DNA of 64,000 nucleotides, taken from NCBI GenBank assembly GCA_051362555.1, contig CM120641.1:12276001-12340000 (forward strand), written 5' to 3'. The stretch comes from Lingula anatina (lineage: Eukaryota > Animalia > Brachiopoda). Under the pieces are notes generated by a model, which ran no database searches, had not been told where the DNA came from, and saw nothing but the letters and a program-made list of their open reading frames with translations. A program made the translations under genes and the position numbers. Below are positions 22,800 through 64,000 of the stretch, piece after piece. The stretch's first letter is position 1. Every line of letters begins with the position of its first letter.

Positions 22800-23017
22800 G
22801 TAAGTTTCATATTCAAAGAGAAGCAAATTGACAACATGCTAACAGGCTGATTATATTTTGCAACAAAATTTTATTAAAATAGTTTTCCCAAACATAAGAT
22901 TGATTTTAAATGGTTTATTTTGATGATTTGTGGCGAGTATATTTTTACCTTTGGGCTTTCCTTTTTATCTATGGAATGTCCAAGTTAGGTTTAACTGCAA
23001 TACAAGTAAATACATCA

Positions 23018-25525
23018 AGGAAGGTGACGGACGAGAATGTCATAGACACCCAGAAGGAATTCATTACTCTGTATCAATCAGCAGGCGAATGTATGAAACG
23101 CACACGAAACGTTAACAAGAAGAAAACTACGCAACCAGACTGGTGGGATGAACAATGCGCAATTGCTAAACAAGATAAATATAAAAAGTTAAGAAAATTT
23201 AGGAAAACAAGCTCGCAGTCAGATCTGAGCGAGTATTTAGACTCTAAACATATGTTCAGAAATATATGCAGAGATAAGAAAGCACAATTAGAAAGGACGC
23301 GACGTTTAGAGCTTATTGATTGTCGTAACAACGCAACTAAATTCTGGGCGTGTATAAAAAATGCCAGTAAACAATCCCAAAGCGTCAGTAAAGAGACACA
23401 ATATATTTCAGGCGGAAAATGGTTTAGCTATTTTAAGGCATTGTTTGCTATGAAGGAACATACTAATGCTAATGACGATATAAAAGAAAGTATTTTCAGA
23501 GATATTAATTATGTTAGAGATTCAAGTATACTAGATAGGGATATAACAGAAGATGAAATTATTCTAAGTGCTAAATCACTTAATAACGGAAAAGTAGCGG
23601 GTATTGATGGTACATGTATAGAAATGTACAAACAAACTATAAACAAAACATTACCTTATTTAAAATTGTTATTTAACAAAGTGTTATCAACAGGTAACGT
23701 CCCTCAAGACTGGTGCGTAAGCCTAATCACACCAATTCACAAAAAAGGAACTAAACTAGACCCTAATAATTACAGGGCTATTTCTGTAGTGAACAGTCTT
23801 AGCAAGTTATTTATGAAAATCTTAAGTAATCGCCTGACCTCATGGGCCGAGGAAAATGGTGTGATTGACTAATCTCAAGCAGGATTTCGTAAGGGGTATT
23901 CGACAACAGATAATATCTTTAGCCTTCAAGCAGTTATCCAAAAATATTTGTCAAGACAGAAAGGTCGACTGTATGTTTTTTACATAGATTTTTTAAAAGC
24001 TTATGATAATTGTGTCCATGAACAACTCTGGAAAAGCCTGCAGCGTAAAGGAATTCCAGACAGCAGTAATCTACTATTAGTTTTTAAAACGATGTATAAC
24101 CAACTCAAATCGTGTATAAAAACACAAAATTGTCTTACTCCATTTTTTCCATGCGAAATTGGAACCAAACAAGGATGTGTGAGCTCTACGATTATCTTCT
24201 CTCTATTTGTGAATGATTTGGTCGAATACATGAAACTTAAATGTGGTAATGGAATCTTTATTACTGCAGACTTTACAGAATTGCATGCCTTAATGTTTGC
24301 GGATGACGTCTCAACTATTGCGGAAACTGTTATTAAGCTACAAAGACAAATTAATTCAGTGAGTGATTTTTGTGACGAAACAGGTATGAAATTAAATCTA
24401 GACAAATCCAAGGTAATGGTATTCAGGAGAGGTGGTGTATTAAAAAAATGCGAAAAATGGACATATAAAGGAAATAGAATTGAGGTCATATCCAGTTATA
24501 AATATTTAGGAGTCCTCTTCACTCCTCGATTAGCTTGGTCTAGAACGCAGGAACATTTGTCATTACAAGCGATAAAGGCATCTAACGCAATATTTCGCTG
24601 TCAAAAATATTTTGGATATTTTGATTATCAAGAAGCCTTTAAATTGTTCGATGCAACTGTGAAACCGATTTTAATATATGCAGCAGAAATATGGGGATTT
24701 CAACAGGGTGCAAAAGTTGAACAAATTCATGTCTGTTTTTGCAAAAGAGTAGCCTGCTTAAATCAAAATGTGACAAATGTTCTAGCATTAAGCGAATGTG
24801 GTAGACTCCCTCTTTATGTGTCATATATGACTAAATGTATTAAATACTGGGTCAAACTGTTAACCATGCCAGCAGAAAGATACCCCAAGCAATGTTATAT
24901 TATGTTACGCCGTTTAGACACTGAAGGAAGGTCATCCTGGGCAACTTGCATTAAAAACTTATTATTTCATTATGGTTTTGGATACGCCTGGATAGCTAAC
25001 GATATCGGGGATGCAGAGGCGTTCTTAAGTTTATTTAGAACTAGAATAACAGATTGTGCAAAACAAACTATATTTGCCGATATTAATGTATCACCTAAAT
25101 GCATCAGTTATAAACTCTACAAAAGCGCTTTAAATCCTGAACGATACCTTTCACTGCCTTTAACCTACAAGCAAAGGAAAATACTTTCAAATTTTCGTTG
25201 CTCAAGTCATGAGCTCATGATCGAAAGAGGCCGTTATACTAAAATCGACAGAGATCAAAGGTTTTGCCCTTTATGTCTCAGACTAGGCATTCACACAGTA
25301 GAAGACGAAATGCATTTTTTACTTTTATGCCCCTTGTACGATGAATTCAGAATGAAATACTTTAGAACTGAATGGACATCCCGCTTTCCAAATAAACATT
25401 TGTTTACAACTATAATGTCTGACGAGAACGAAGAGAGTATTTTCTCACTGGCTAGATTTTTATTGAACGCCTTTACTCTAAGAAGTAAAATAGTAGATAA
25501 CAATGTTAACCTTCCAGATATGTAA
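23018..25525 (+). pseudogene. LINE ORF2 (reverse transcriptase plus C-terminal CCHC knuckle), no endonuclease domain, one in-frame stop at 23870-23872
   Basis: Motifs DWWDEQC, KVAGIDG, PIHKKG, NYRAIS, D*SQAGFRKG, IDFLKAYD, GTKQGC, LMFADD (24290-24307), YKYLG, FRCSSHELMIERGRY, CPLC..EDEMHFLLLC; track ORFs 22910-23872 and 23948-25525 are the same frame. Confidence 0.93.
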
Positions 25526-59718: not shown

Positions 59719-60015
59719 TTAAACAAGTTCAATCATTTGTTTTTCCTTTTCCGCTTTATTTGGAGACATGATGGCGTGTCCATTAGAAACACCGTTTTGT
59801 TGGTTCGTTTCGTCTTCTATGATAATTTGTGCTTGACTCTTGTCGACGTCATTTTGGTTATTGTCAACCTCCAAACGATCGACCGTTTTTTCTGACTTAT
59901 TTTTCTCCTTGTCGTCATCGTCCCGTCCAAATGTGATGTCATCTTTCATCCCGGTGATGTCCCAAACGCGTATTGTGCAGTCATGTGACCCGGTGAAAAG
60001 CTTTCCGTCAGCAAC
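59719..60015 (-). CDS. WDR86: WD repeat-containing protein 86-like, last coding exon
   Basis: Acceptor ccactAG, phase 0; VADGKLFTGSHDCTIRVWDITG (last WD40 repeat) plus acidic tail to TAA at 59719-59721; candidate AATAAA at ~59321-59330 on the minus strand. Confidence 0.88.
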   Translation of the reverse strand, partial: VADGKLFTGSHDCTIRVWDITGMKDDITFGRDDDDKEKNKSEKTVDRLEVDNNQNDVDKSQAQIIIEDETNQQNGVSNGHAIMSPNKAEKEKQMIELV

Positions 60016-61936
60016 CTAGTGGAATATTAAGGTGTCAGTGACTAGTCTAAATTGTGCTTTAGATTGGGTATACGATTACTTTTAACTTATTTGACGTAAA
60101 ACTATATAATCATTTAGCATATAACAAACGTATTGTCTTCAAACTATTTGCAGCTAATGCACTTCACTGGCAAAGGTATATTAAGAAAGTCTAATTCAAC
60201 AGAGTTGTTGAGCCTCGGTAATCACAGCAAAATAATGTCATTACTACATACTAGTTACGATGTGCTGCGTAAAATACTCGTAACCAAAGAAACATGATAA
60301 TAGAGGGTTATTACGCAATCATATTTAATACATATTGGTAATCAAATAATGTCGAGGACTTCATCGGAGGAGATATCCCTCTCTGCCACCATTTTTGATC
60401 GTTTTTTATTTGTCATACCGTGAAAATTTCCACATGGGGGCTTGTTGTGTTAATGTCATTTATAAGAGAAGATACCATATACTGATAAACATGGCATCTT
60501 ATATTTTATAAGATGAGGCCGGGGGTTTGCCCCTGTCAGAATAAAAAATTCTTTTAAATATGATTTGAAGCGTGCATGTGTGCGAGCGAGCGAGCGAGTG
60601 CGTGAGTGAAATGCGTCTTTTTATTACAGGTAATTTCCACGTCGTTGCGGGATGCCTACGTTTAGGCACACGCAAAAACAAAGAAATATAGATTAATGTA
60701 GCTCAAAAACTAAATCTCCTCAAATGAAGCCTACGTTAGTCTGTGAAAGCACACACACATTACTACAAGTCAGAAAGAGCGAAGAGGCAAATGCTTGAAA
60801 CCAAAGTAAATACTGAAGAATAAAATACAAAGTTTTGTGTTAGTGCAGAAACACAGTAATCATACTCTCTGGCAAAGGTAAACATTGGCACTTTTGAATG
60901 GAGAAAAAAGGATGTGGGACTAGCTTTAATATGTTTCCTAATTCGTATCCCATCTCTAATCCCTTATTCTCAGGGTTCTTCTCATATTTCCTGTAAACTA
61001 TTCAATTTAAACCCGTAGCCTTCGATTTACTTAGAATGCATTAACATCTCAATTTTCTCAAAACGCTGCAGCAAATAAATAATGCAGTCTTAAATGTAAA
61101 ATATAAAAAATCATTCGACTGACTTTAATTTAAATATATCAGTATATTTCTAAAAATAAAATATTTATTTAATTTTACAACGTTATTGTCTTCGAAATTG
61201 ATTGACCGTCAGCAAACGTAACTGTTTTCACATTAAGTGAGGTGGATATCCTGCACACAACGTGAAAACATGTTTATGTACACACGGTAAGCATCTGGAG
61301 GGTAAAATAATACGCAGCCGGGGCTTTAACCAGACAATCAACTATTTGCTGTCGTCATGGCCTTTTACAACTTAACTCAAAACCACCGTAATATAGTTTC
61401 TCTGTATGGTTCGGTAACAAAGGGACGAGATCGTTACAGAAAACAAAATTAGTGAGTGCACTTTCCATATGGTCATGCGAGGTGCGTTATGAACCCATGC
61501 ATTTCTGAATTAGTAACGCCATGTCGATTACGCAGCTCGACATTTGGCGGTTACTGCTCGAATTATGCGCGGTTAACGTGCAAGTGCAATGCAACATCAC
61601 TGGTGCTGTGGAAAACGGATCCAAAAGGGAACAATGACAAAACAGATTAAGGATGAAGACGGGAGGGTGCTAAGAACGTGGCTATCTTCTTAACCGACCT
61701 GGATGTACCCACATGTAGCATATCGATTAAAAAGCTTATTTCAACAACTATTCATGTCATTATTTCGTTACATAATGATTATTTTAGGAGATATAATGCG
61801 TAAGAGGTTTTCTAAGCCTGATCTTTATACCCTAAAAACTATAATTCCACTACTAATAGGCCGCATTCACATCGAGAAGAGCCGAGGCTCTACAAAACCG
61901 AGACCTACATGAAAGAAAAACCGGCTAATCTTTCAA

Positions 61937-62226
61937 TAGTCTCTCCGCCTCTCACACGCCTCCCCATGCGTCGTCCCAATGGAGCCGGGATTCTCGCTAA
62001 GGCGCAGACAATGTGATTAGCTTAATTGTCTGGCACGCCCCCTTCGCAAAGCAACATGACCAACATCGGGGACCACAAAGTTTTCCCGACTTTACTTGTT
62101 CTCGTACTTTAAGTTACGATGGGGTGTGCCTGACATTTAAGCCACAAAAACTGAATGCAATTTTGTAAGAATCCCCTGGGAGTAAGATCGATCTAGCTGT
62201 TATGACAGGGTTATGGGAATGATCCC
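61937..62226. mobile_element. Diverged relative of the GGGACCATTC foldback family, in the WDR86 last intron
   Basis: Arms agcttaattgtctggcacgcccc / ggggtgtgcctgacatttaagc; ends gatcgatctag...gggaatgatccc (reverse complement of the family start). Confidence 0.6.
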
Positions 62227-62684
62227 TTAGATCTAACAAATAAGTAAAATCTTTCATGGTTTGGAGGTTCTAATTAGTTTTGACACTGGTCTGAAGCTTT
62301 CTCTGACAAAAACACATATTAAGCTTTATATCTCCTTACGTAACTGTTATGCAATAAATTAAAAATTAATGATATGAAATGAAAAGCTGTTAAAATAATC
62401 TTCTTATATTCAGCGTGTTGGTATACCTTAGTCGGTGAAGAAGATAGCCACGATTCTGCCCCCCTCCCCCGTCTACATCCTTAATATTTTCATTCCGATA
62501 TGAAATGAGGAATGTCATGTCATCAGAGTGCCTTGGACAATTTGTACTTCGAGCATTTAATCGAGATTTTAGTGTAATCTTAGGTTTTTCTCTATAGTTT
62601 TTGAAATAGAAAAATAATTTTGGTTTATGACCTTGAGTTCCCCTTCGGATTGTGTGAAGGCGCATGCTTTATCAACAACTCTAC

Positions 62685-62788
62685 CTGTAGGCAGTTAACT
62701 GCGAACGTATGACCACGAAATACTCTCTTCATCGTCCCTGATTTGGCATCAAAACATCTGCTTAACGTATCTCCACATCCGGTGAATA
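62685..62788 (-). CDS. WDR86: WDR86-like penultimate exon, variant B (104 nt)
   Basis: AG|TA TTC ACC...CTA CAG|GTAGAG; (V)FTGCGDTLSRCFDAKSGTMKRVFRGHTFAVNCLQ, matching the recalled vertebrate WDR86 segment FTGSGDACARAFDAQSGELRRVFRGHTFIINCIQ; phase 1 in, phase 0 out. Confidence 0.9.
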
Positions 62789-63077
62789 CTGATATAGCCA
62801 AGAATAAAAATAGTTGAAATGTTGAGAAAAAAAGTATAAATGTATAAACCAAGGATTAAAACAACAAAGACACGCGTCACTGGAAATACACAAGTTGTCG
62901 TCCCATAAATGCGCCTACCTTTTGCTAACAACACAGGGTTCTTTTTAACGCCTCCTACACCCACCCACACTACTCCCCCCCCCCCCCCCCAAAAAAAAGC
63001 GCGTTTTGTAAAGATACCCTAAGTAAGTTAGCGAAGGGGAGACGTGCACATGGTACCAGTTAACAGACGACATTAAC

Positions 63078-63181
63078 CTGCATGCAGTTGGCGCCGGTTT
63101 CATGGCCCTTGAACTGACGCTGAACAGACCCGGACTTGGAGTCAAAGCAACGCACAATGCCGTCCCCACATCCGGTGATCA
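63078..63181 (-). CDS. WDR86: WDR86-like penultimate exon, variant A (104 nt), duplicate of variant B
   Basis: ttattttAG|TG ATC ACC...ATG CAG|GTTAAT; (V)ITGCGDGIVRCFDSKSGSVQRQFKGHETGANCMQ; same length and phases as variant B; not shown in this frame in the ORF track. Confidence 0.85.
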
Positions 63182-63883
63182 CTAAAATAAGATGGGGTTA
63201 ATAGCAACAGACAATTGCATAGGTTTACATATGAAGCAGTACAGTGAAAATTGGATTTGTCTATCTTATCATTTTTCATTTATTATTTTGTTATTGTCAG
63301 CCATCGCTCTCCATGCGTGTCTTGTAAAATATGTATGCTTTTTCACGGCATATATTCTGCCTGCCTGTTTGGTTTTGTTGATTGATATTGATGGTGTAGT
63401 TGTTTATTGTTTTGAAATATTGTTTTGTGGAGAGAAAGTATATCATGGTAGCCTAGACAACGTGGTGAAGACTGTGCTCTCCTCTGTAGCGCTGGAGCAC
63501 GCCTGAAATTACATTATCATATCATAAACATGAAAACAACACGAAACGCTGCGATAGTGTCAATTATCACTAAGGTGAACTTGGCGCTTCATAAATACGA
63601 CGAGAAAAGGCAATCATTTGTTGCAGTGGGAGAATAAGGTGACCTCTTCTTTTCCTGTGGCGCAAGGAGTAACAATTCCCGTGCTTAACAGCACGCGAGA
63701 GCTACATCACCCAATCTAAAGCACAAGACTTGCTTTTTAAATGGATTCGCACTTTTAAAGTTAAGTTCCCAACAATATTTTAAAATGCGTAAATGTACTT
63801 AATTTGTAAGGCTATATACATCGTGTACTTCAAATGGGCATAAGTAATAAATACGTAGTTCACAATAAGTGCCAATGCCTTAC

Positions 63884-64000
63884 CAAGTCCTTCATGAAAC
63901 TTTACACAGCTCACGCTGTGTTTATGTCCTCTGTAGATTCGTGTGCAATCTCCGAATTCTGTCACCCACGCTCGACCTGTCTGGTCTGAGCTTCCGCTAT
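63884..64000 (-). CDS. WDR86: WDR86-like internal exon (continues beyond the window)
   Basis: SGSSDQTGRAWVTEFGDCTRIYRGHKHSVSCVKFHEGL G|GTAAGG; WD40 GH/W signature, phase-1 donor. Confidence 0.88.

What the first reader, a model, noticed from the sequence alone, without database searches (positions are those of the whole stretch)
62685..63181. Mutually exclusive tandem exon pair in a WDR86-like gene
Seen: two homologous exons (63078-63181 and 62685-62788), each exactly 104 nt, each AG/GT-bounded, both phase 1 in and phase 0 out, 289 nt apart. They encode VITGCGDGIVRCFDSKSGSVQRQFKGHETGANCMQ versus VFTGCGDTLSRCFDAKSGTMKRVFRGHTFAVNCLQ. Either one joins the flanking exons in frame; including both or neither shifts the frame. 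The WD40 core (TGCGD, RCFD.KSG, F.GH, NC.Q) is kept despite many synonymous differences, which suggests both are under selection. Inference: two isoforms swap surface residues of one beta-propeller blade. I do not recall mutually exclusive splicing being described for WDR86, a poorly characterised gene, but could not check.
Basis: partly seen in the sequence, partly recalled or inferred. Interest (0 to 1): 0.8.

Follow-up and report, generated by a model that had tools for sequence, protein, structure and literature searches.

The report
Swappable twin exons in invertebrate WDR86
An invertebrate's gene for the little-studied scaffold protein WDR86 carries two old side-by-side versions of one exon and likely uses one or the other, and several other invertebrates keep two or three versions at the same spot, so the gene probably makes equal-length proteins that differ in one repeat.

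Summary
Observation confirmed: two 104-nt AG/GT exons (A 63181-63078, B 62788-62685, minus strand), 19/34 residues alike, synonymous sites saturated. RNA reads from 3 of 8 runs show B joined to both neighbours (18 and 3 reads); A's junctions reached no listing, but read-depth arithmetic in one run fits 3 spliced A reads exactly, so A is likely a minor form. The gene is WDR86. Lineus longissimus RefSeq isoforms X1/X2 differ only in this exon, and 9 of 62 metagenome loci (6 distinct sets) carry two or three tandem copies under purifying selection. Whether one ancient duplication or several made them is unresolved (AU p 0.23). The exon straddles blades 7-8 of a predicted eight-bladed propeller; canonical top-face hotspots barely change. 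Exclusivity is likely kept by weak upstream donors plus decay of double-inclusion mRNA; a perfect 18-bp complementary pair brackets the cluster here only. No paper or earlier scan note on WDR86 exon swapping was found. A new member of a known kind.

The parts
63884..64000 (-). Upstream constitutive WDR86 exon (runs off the window; ends in phase 1, donor GTAAGG)
   Evidence: Translation; BLOSUM score 169-179 against the matching stretch of Tubulanus, Lineus, Owenia, Capitella, Potamilus and Bugula WDR86-like proteins; joint 63884>62788 in 3 reads
63078..63181 (-). Alternative exon A (first copy, 104 nt, weak donor GTTAAT); likely the minor form
   Evidence: no junction listed (threshold 3 reads); in X8 bin depths equal 68 and 24 bases, exactly what two upstream>A reads and one A>last-exon read give, with zero depth in both adjacent intron bins; the one variant seen in it is synonymous
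62789..63077 (-). 289-nt intervening intron; CTAAC at +46..+50 but 10 AG dinucleotides and an AG-free zone of only 93 nt; no unusual fold
   Evidence: fold z-score +0.76, 156 of 200 shuffles fold as well
62685..62788 (-). Alternative exon B (last copy, 104 nt, donor GTAGAG); major form in the runs laid; closer to mammalian WDR86 (21/34 vs 17/34 for A with Heterocephalus)
59719..60015 (-). Coding part of the last exon (strands b, c of the closing blade plus a low-complexity tail), stop included
   Evidence: joint 62685>60015 in 8 reads
63709..63726 (-). 5' arm of a perfect 18-nt complementary pair, 157 nt after the upstream donor
   Evidence: duplex -37.1 kcal/mol with extensions
60052..60069 (-). 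3' arm of the pair, ending 36 nt before the last exon's acceptor, just upstream of a CTGAC branch-point motif; pairing would loop out both exons
   Evidence: 0 of 200 shuffles and 3 of 79 like-sized stretches elsewhere in the window reach 18 nt

Best explanation
The window holds the 3' end of a WDR86 gene with two tandem, long-diverged copies of one 104-nt coding exon, which are likely spliced mutually exclusively to give two equal-length proteins predicted to differ in 15 residues across blades 7 and 8 of an eight-bladed beta-propeller. Shown: both copies are intact, B is joined to both neighbours in reads, and the same position carries two or three selected copies in other invertebrates. Inferred: B is the default and A a minor or tissue-restricted form, because upstream copies carry weak donors; double inclusion would shift the frame and put a stop 77 nt before the next junction, so such mRNA would be removed by nonsense-mediated decay; the 18-bp pair that brackets the cluster may bias the choice in this lineage. 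The swap would retune the rim, outer strand and bottom loop of the propeller (B has one more basic, one fewer acidic residue and a Phe in loop da) rather than the central top-face hotspots, and so probably changes partner preference rather than fold.
For: Anatomy and frame logic. pS 0.80 vs pN 0.32 between A and B. Reads: B>last 8+5+5, upstream>B 3; no A>B or skip-both joint listed in the 3 of 8 runs with exon reads. Depth arithmetic in X8 fits 2 upstream>A reads (68 bases) and 1 A>last read (24 bases; an A>B read would give 21); the same arithmetic reproduces the 5 listed B reads (169 bases) as a control. Lineus XP_064646055/XP_064646056, both 461 aa, differ at 13 positions, all in this exon. 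Tandem AG/GT copies of length 3n+2 between the same flanking exons in L001/L002, L011, L025/L035/L044 (two), L022, L031 (three), L037 (two seen). Positional orthologues under purifying selection: L031 vs L037 copy 1 has 8 synonymous and 0 replacement changes, copy 2 10 vs 2; L011 vs L025 copy 1 pS 0.87, pN 0.08, copy 2 pS 0.74, pN 0.17. A bryozoan-like 434-aa protein on a 2049-nt contig (P0284, likely a transcript) carries the first copy alone (97% to L025 copy 1), while the Bugula gene model carries the second type. Donor +3 base is A in 0 of 10 non-last copies and 5 of 6 last copies (related sequences, not independent). Eight-bladed fold: 32 strands, pLDDT 83; best matches Tako8, ODA16, Fbw7.
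Against: No A junction reached the tool's 3-read listing in any of 8 runs; its use rests on about 3 reads inferred from depth in one run, and X9's reads over A are unspliced. 5 of 8 runs had no reads on the exons and only 6-30% of each run was read. NMD of the double form is a prediction, not observed; skip-both would stop in the last exon and escape junction-based decay. The 18-bp pair has no counterpart of that length in L001, L011, L022, L025 or (cut) L031 (longest perfect helices 7-13 nt). The model is of the Lineus orthologue, not of the window's protein; surface assignment uses strand register, not coordinates. No partner or function of WDR86 was found in print (listing).
Confidence: 0.82

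Rival explanations
1. Exon A is an old duplicate that has recently lost function in this species (a pseudo-exon with splicing noise).
For: Weak donor GTTAAT; no listed junction; about 3 inferred reads against 21 listed for B; A-vs-B dN/dS averages over both lineages and cannot see a recent release.
Against: Length, frame, both splice sites and the GD, DSKSG, GH, NC.Q motifs are intact at saturated synonymous distance; the one variant in A is synonymous while reads show 8 differences in about 100 nt of the nearby intron; first copies are selected and expressed in relatives.
Confidence: 0.08
2. Exclusivity is enforced by competing RNA pairing: elements just after A's and B's donors compete for one docking site near 61960-61941 in the downstream intron.
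For: Best shared docking window pairs at -19.2 and -19.6 kcal/mol; 2 of 60 shuffles did as well; arrangement matches the downstream-docking type described in PMC6071210 (passages).
Against: The site lies in a repeat on which reads from other loci pile up (61864-62017) and is G+C rich; the result is borderline and one of several tests; the upstream-docking model gave 29 of 60; no close genome was available to test conservation or compensatory change.
Confidence: 0.2
3. A distant branch point close to A's donor sterically blocks A-to-B splicing, as in OGDH exons 4a/4b.
For: CTAAC at +46..+50 of the 289-nt intron, near the roughly 50-nt threshold given in PMC7969005 (passages); no YTRAY motif in the last 60 nt before B.
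Against: Ten AG dinucleotides in the intron and an AG-free zone of 93 nt only; intervening introns of relatives are 366-2675 nt with AG-free zones of 15-124 nt.
Confidence: 0.07
4. The tandem copies in different invertebrate groups arose by separate duplications of a duplication-prone exon rather than once.
For: The 34-column tree does not reject A+B as sisters (p-AU 0.23) nor the two L001 copies (0.086); bryozoan copy 2 and the two Lineus forms do not sort cleanly into A and B types; single-copy loci L005, L010, L026/L045, L016 exist; convergent duplication of orthologous exons is reported in PMC9741552 (passages).
Against: A is closer to first copies of other animals (23/34 L025, 21/34 L001) and B to last copies (25/34 L001) than to each other (19/34); first copies share G after the Asp and last copies of the window, L001, L022, L031 share F in loop da; weak-donor asymmetry is shared.
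Confidence: 0.4

Closest known systems
Lineus longissimus WDR86-like isoforms X1/X2 (XP_064646055.1, XP_064646056.1)
   Same: Same gene, same 34-residue segment swapped, equal length isoforms.
   Different: A database annotation, not a described system; genomic order of the copies not seen; neither form maps cleanly on A or B (A: 21 and 20 of 34; B: 23 and 20 of 34).
Human tandem duplicated exon substitutions, e.g. OGDH 4a/4b, FYN, ATE1 7a/7b (PMC8373072 supplement searched; PMC9741552 passages)
   Same: Old tandem homologous exons, one used at a time, swapping part of a folded domain.
   Different: WDR86 is absent from that catalogue and from the supplements of PMC5740500 (positive controls found); the pair here is seen in invertebrates and expands to three copies in some.
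ATE1 exons 7a/7b RNA-structure control (PMC7797038, abstract and outline only)
   Same: A long-range intronic pairing near a two-exon cluster could set the isoform ratio.
   Different: ATE1's elements are conserved and tested, and compete; here one 18-bp pair brackets both exons, no competing partner is established, and it is not seen in distant relatives.
Eight-bladed WD40 propellers ODA16/DAW1, Fbw7, Tako8
   Same: Fold of the Lineus orthologue model (TM-score 0.96 to Tako8, 0.89 to human ODA16, target-normalised).
   Different: 26-29% identity; fold neighbours only, no inference on partners.

Membership tests
Mutually exclusive tandem duplicated exons | Adjacent homologous exons of like length and phase between shared flanking exons | tested here: met
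Mutually exclusive tandem duplicated exons | Each exon is spliced to both flanking exons in transcripts | tested here: inconclusive
   B: listed directly. A: inferred from depth arithmetic, about 3 reads in one run. Met in Lineus by annotation.
Mutually exclusive tandem duplicated exons | Transcripts with both or neither exon are rare | tested here: inconclusive
   No such joint listed in 3 expressing runs, but depth is low and the listing needs 3 reads
Mutually exclusive tandem duplicated exons | Both copies under purifying selection | tested here: met
   pS 0.80, pN 0.32 for A vs B; copy-wise selection in relatives; no close relative for exon A itself
Mutually exclusive tandem duplicated exons | Both protein forms exist | not testable with these tools
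   No proteomics
WDR86 | Exons match named WDR86 proteins better than other WD40 repeats, in order | tested here: met
   Upstream exon scores 169-179, swapped exon 118-136 on Lineus, Tubulanus, Owenia, Capitella; second-best repeats 51-72; exon boundaries coincide with points where mammalian WDR86 isoforms diverge (P0219, P0220, P0234, P0235)
WDR86 | Full-length eight-repeat protein | not testable with these tools
   Only the last four exons lie in the window and no genome is held; tested on the Lineus orthologue
Docking-site/selector RNA control (Dscam, 14-3-3, Mhc type) | Conserved competing complementary elements | tested here: inconclusive
   2 of 60 shuffles for a downstream site inside a repeat, 29 of 60 for an upstream site; conservation not testable
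Distant-branch-point exclusion (OGDH type) | Branch point under about 50 nt from the donor with an AG-free zone to the acceptor | tested here: not met
   AG-free zone 93 of 289 nt, 10 AGs

The most novel reading that the evidence does not exclude
One duplication in an early spiralian or bilaterian ancestor made a swappable WD-repeat cassette in WDR86 that has been kept for over half a billion years, lost in vertebrates, arthropods and some worms, and expanded to three copies in others, where two selected copies even drop the conserved GH of the closing blade; a shared weak-donor code keeps the last copy as default, and in this species an 18-bp RNA bridge around the whole cluster switches between A, B and a truncated, decay-resistant skip form.
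Probability: 0.25. Interest if true: 0.65.

Novelty: new member of a known kind. Interest (0 to 1): 0.47.

Why it matters
WDR86 is conserved from corals to mammals yet has no described molecular function in the papers listed. A segment that several invertebrate groups keep in two or three selected versions marks where the protein likely meets its partners (blade 7 outer strand, loop da, closing blade 8) and gives a direct test: compare the interactomes of the isoforms. It also adds a clean case for the question of whether shared tandem exon swaps are inherited or reinvented, and shows a candidate splice-site code (weak donors on upstream copies). The class itself is well known, and this scan has logged many such pairs in other genes (229 notes), which caps the surprise.

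Tried and rejected
No own genome is held. Index search for runs listed no RNA holder, only 9 raw-read runs by species label; 8 were laid, X6 was not; X1, X2, X4, X3, X5 had no reads on the exons, which is no test. Word-based protein search with exon A found no candidate; the HMMER search with exon A was swamped by long multi-WD40 proteins and gave nothing usable; an alignment of single exons was not used. The protein Atlas gave no answer. The viral collection held no match. Isoform look-ups of 30 clusters; 25 pairs from the first 20 clusters were aligned and only Lineus showed a clean same-length swap; the last 10 clusters were only inspected at the best-matching stretch. A third copy in the window was sought and not found. 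The 18-nt pair as transposon ends: rejected, no target-site duplication is apparent in the flanks (sequence) and no other copy within 3 mismatches in the window. A distant branch point and upstream docking: not supported. Tree tests neither rejected a species-specific duplication nor showed an ancient clade of first copies (p-AU 0.23, 0.086, 0.225, 0.337; 22 of the 44 rows were used, the long and redundant rows left out). Literature: WDR86 with 'mutually exclusive' (3 listed, none on topic), WDR86 alone (124 papers, 40 listed), WDR86 with isoform and alternative splicing (3 listed), MXE with WD40 (0); listings only. Subscription papers and bioRxiv supplements were not searchable.

Full report
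Observation. On the minus strand, exons A (63181-63078) and B (62788-62685) are each 104 nt, AG/GT-bounded and 289 nt apart, with 59 of 104 bases and 19 of 34 residues identical. One exon lets the last exon read 98 codons to its stop; both put a stop at codon 9 of B, 77 nt before B's donor; neither gives a stop at codon 2 of the last exon. No third copy lies between the flanking exons. Synonymous sites between A and B are saturated (pS 0.80) while pN is 0.32, so the duplication is old and both copies were constrained for most of its history.

Gene identity. No genome is held. A search with exon B reached one arthropod protein, and a search with that protein listed 120 of 125 hits, many named WDR86. 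The upstream exon scores 169-179 and the swapped exon 118-136 on Lineus, Tubulanus, Owenia and Capitella proteins, against 51-72 for the next-best repeat. Mammalian WDR86 isoforms diverge exactly at this exon's ends, so the exon boundaries are old. The window's best matches are spiralian, but my set held no echinoderm, hemichordate or amphioxus protein, so the animal's phylum is not settled.

Expression. Nine raw RNA runs were offered by species label; 8 were laid, 6-30% of each read. Three (X7, X8, X9, one study) have reads on the exons. Listed: B to last exon in 8 reads and upstream exon to B in 3 reads (X7); B running into the last exon in 5 and 5 reads (X8, X9). No junction of A, no A-to-B and no skip-both joint reached the 3-read listing. 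In X8, however, the bins holding A's acceptor and donor contain exactly 68 and 24 bases with zero depth in both neighbouring intron bins; two upstream-to-A reads give 68, one A-to-last read gives 24 (three bases are shared by intron start and last exon), an A-to-B read would give 21, and the same arithmetic reproduces the five listed B reads (169 bases). This is an inference from about three reads, possibly two fragments. X9's reads over A run on into introns and are unspliced. The one variant seen in A is synonymous. A is thus likely a real minor form in these samples.

Relatives. Lineus longissimus RefSeq isoforms X1 and X2 are both 461 aa and differ at 13 positions, all in this exon; it was the only clean swap among 25 pairs aligned. 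A pattern scan of metagenome contigs gave 62 loci. Nine (six distinct sets) hold tandem AG/GT copies of length 3n+2 after the same upstream exon: two in L001/L002, L011 and L025/L035/L044, three in L022 and L031, two visible in L037. Four distinct loci with both flanks visible have one copy (L005, L010, L026/L045, L016); the rest are partial, transcript-like, arthropod-like with the exon fused to the next, or unrelated. L011 and L025 are bryozoan-like (88-98% to a protein clustered with Bugula), L001 best matches the annelid Paralvinella, L022 is an unresolved spiralian. Copies are orthologous by position within groups and each is under purifying selection: 8 synonymous and 0 replacement changes for copy 1 of L031 vs L037, 10 and 2 for copy 2; pN 0.08 and 0.17 at saturated pS for the bryozoan copies. 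A likely transcript (P0284) uses bryozoan copy 1 alone and the Bugula gene model copy 2. The Nucella gene model appears to fuse parts of two copies.

Age. A is closer to first copies of other animals (23/34, 21/34) and B to last copies (25/34) than A is to B (19/34); first copies tend to have G after the Asp, last copies an F in loop da, as in vole WDR86. But 34 columns cannot decide: AU tests reject neither sister status of A and B (p 0.23) nor a clade of first copies (0.225), and the Lineus and second bryozoan copies do not sort cleanly. PMC9741552 (passages) reports both ancient and convergent events of this kind. I put one ancient origin at somewhat better than even.

Protein. The AlphaFold model of Lineus X1 (47 sequences, pLDDT 83) has 32 strands and matches eight-bladed propellers (Tako8, ODA16, Fbw7). 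By my count of strands the exon gives b, c, d of blade 7, loop da and strand a of blade 8. The 15 differences fall 1 in b, 1 in loop bc, 2 in c, 2 in loop cd, 4 in d, 3 in loop da, 2 in a. With the rule of PMC3419727 (passages), D-1 is G in both, R1 is N in both and R1-2 is G or A, so the canonical top-face hotspots hardly change; rim, outer strand and bottom loop do, and B is more basic (5 K/R, 2 D/E against 4 and 3). Which residues are exposed is inferred from strand register and general WD40 knowledge, not measured. In L022, L031 and L037 the upstream copies lack the GH whose His belongs to the structural tetrad of the closing blade (recalled WD40 rule), yet are selected.

Mechanism. Shown: frame logic, and that the donor +3 base is A in 0 of 10 non-last copies and 5 of 6 last copies (not independent). 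Inferred: the last copy is the default, upstream copies need activation, and double inclusion is removed by nonsense-mediated decay, a route that PMC6071210 (passages) lists for exons that are not multiples of three. A distant branch point as in OGDH (PMC7969005, passages) is unlikely: a CTAAC sits at +46..+50 but 10 AGs lie in the intron and relatives lack long AG-free zones. A shared downstream docking site is borderline (2 of 60 shuffles) and lies in a repeat. A perfect 18-nt complementary pair (63709-63726 with 60052-60069) brackets both exons, unique in the window, reached by 0 of 200 shuffles and 3 of 79 like-sized stretches elsewhere; it ends 36 nt before the last acceptor. It is not seen in the distant relatives, so its role is open; ATE1 (PMC7797038, abstract) is the precedent for a long-range pair setting an isoform ratio.

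Novelty. Searches found no paper on WDR86 exon swapping (listings only), WDR86 is absent from the supplements of two human catalogues (controls 68, 69), and the scan holds no earlier WDR86 note. The pair is implicit in one RefSeq annotation. It is a new member of a well-known kind, made more interesting by its spread, the three-copy clusters and the unknown function of the gene.

Noticed in passing
window 22910-25525 (+): LINE-type retroelement: two long frames in one register separated by a single stop at about 23870; the second matches Pfam RVT_1 (E 2e-23).
   Followed up: partly
window 61641-61811 and 62311-62490: Degenerate inverted repeat of about 170 nt (71-87% complementary) in the intron after exon B, MITE-like.
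   Followed up: no
window 61864-62017: Short repeat on which RNA reads from other loci pile up in all four runs, with strand-switching joints (hairpin-type element).
   Followed up: partly
L022 5481-6675; L031 2057-3883; L037 532-1578 (oriented loci): Three-copy clusters; the first two copies have lost the GH motif and vary in length (104-113 nt) but are under purifying selection.
   Followed up: partly
P0273, P0168, P0162, P0286, P0274, P0169, P0179, P0314, P0158, P0270, P0155: WDR86 proteins share an N-terminal MG...S start, often with a Cys, which looks like a myristoylation/palmitoylation signal (motif recalled); suggests membrane anchoring.
   Followed up: no
L027, L034, L036, L043: Arthropod-like loci have lost the intron after this exon, which would rule out the swap in this form.
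   Followed up: partly
P0216, P0345 vs P0344 (Haemaphysalis): Two tick isoform models lack the normal sequence after the upstream exon while a third has it.
   Followed up: no
window 60016-60169 and 62789-63882: Unspliced intron reads are common in X7, X8, X9 around the cluster, so splicing of these introns may be slow or the libraries carry pre-mRNA or DNA.
   Followed up: no
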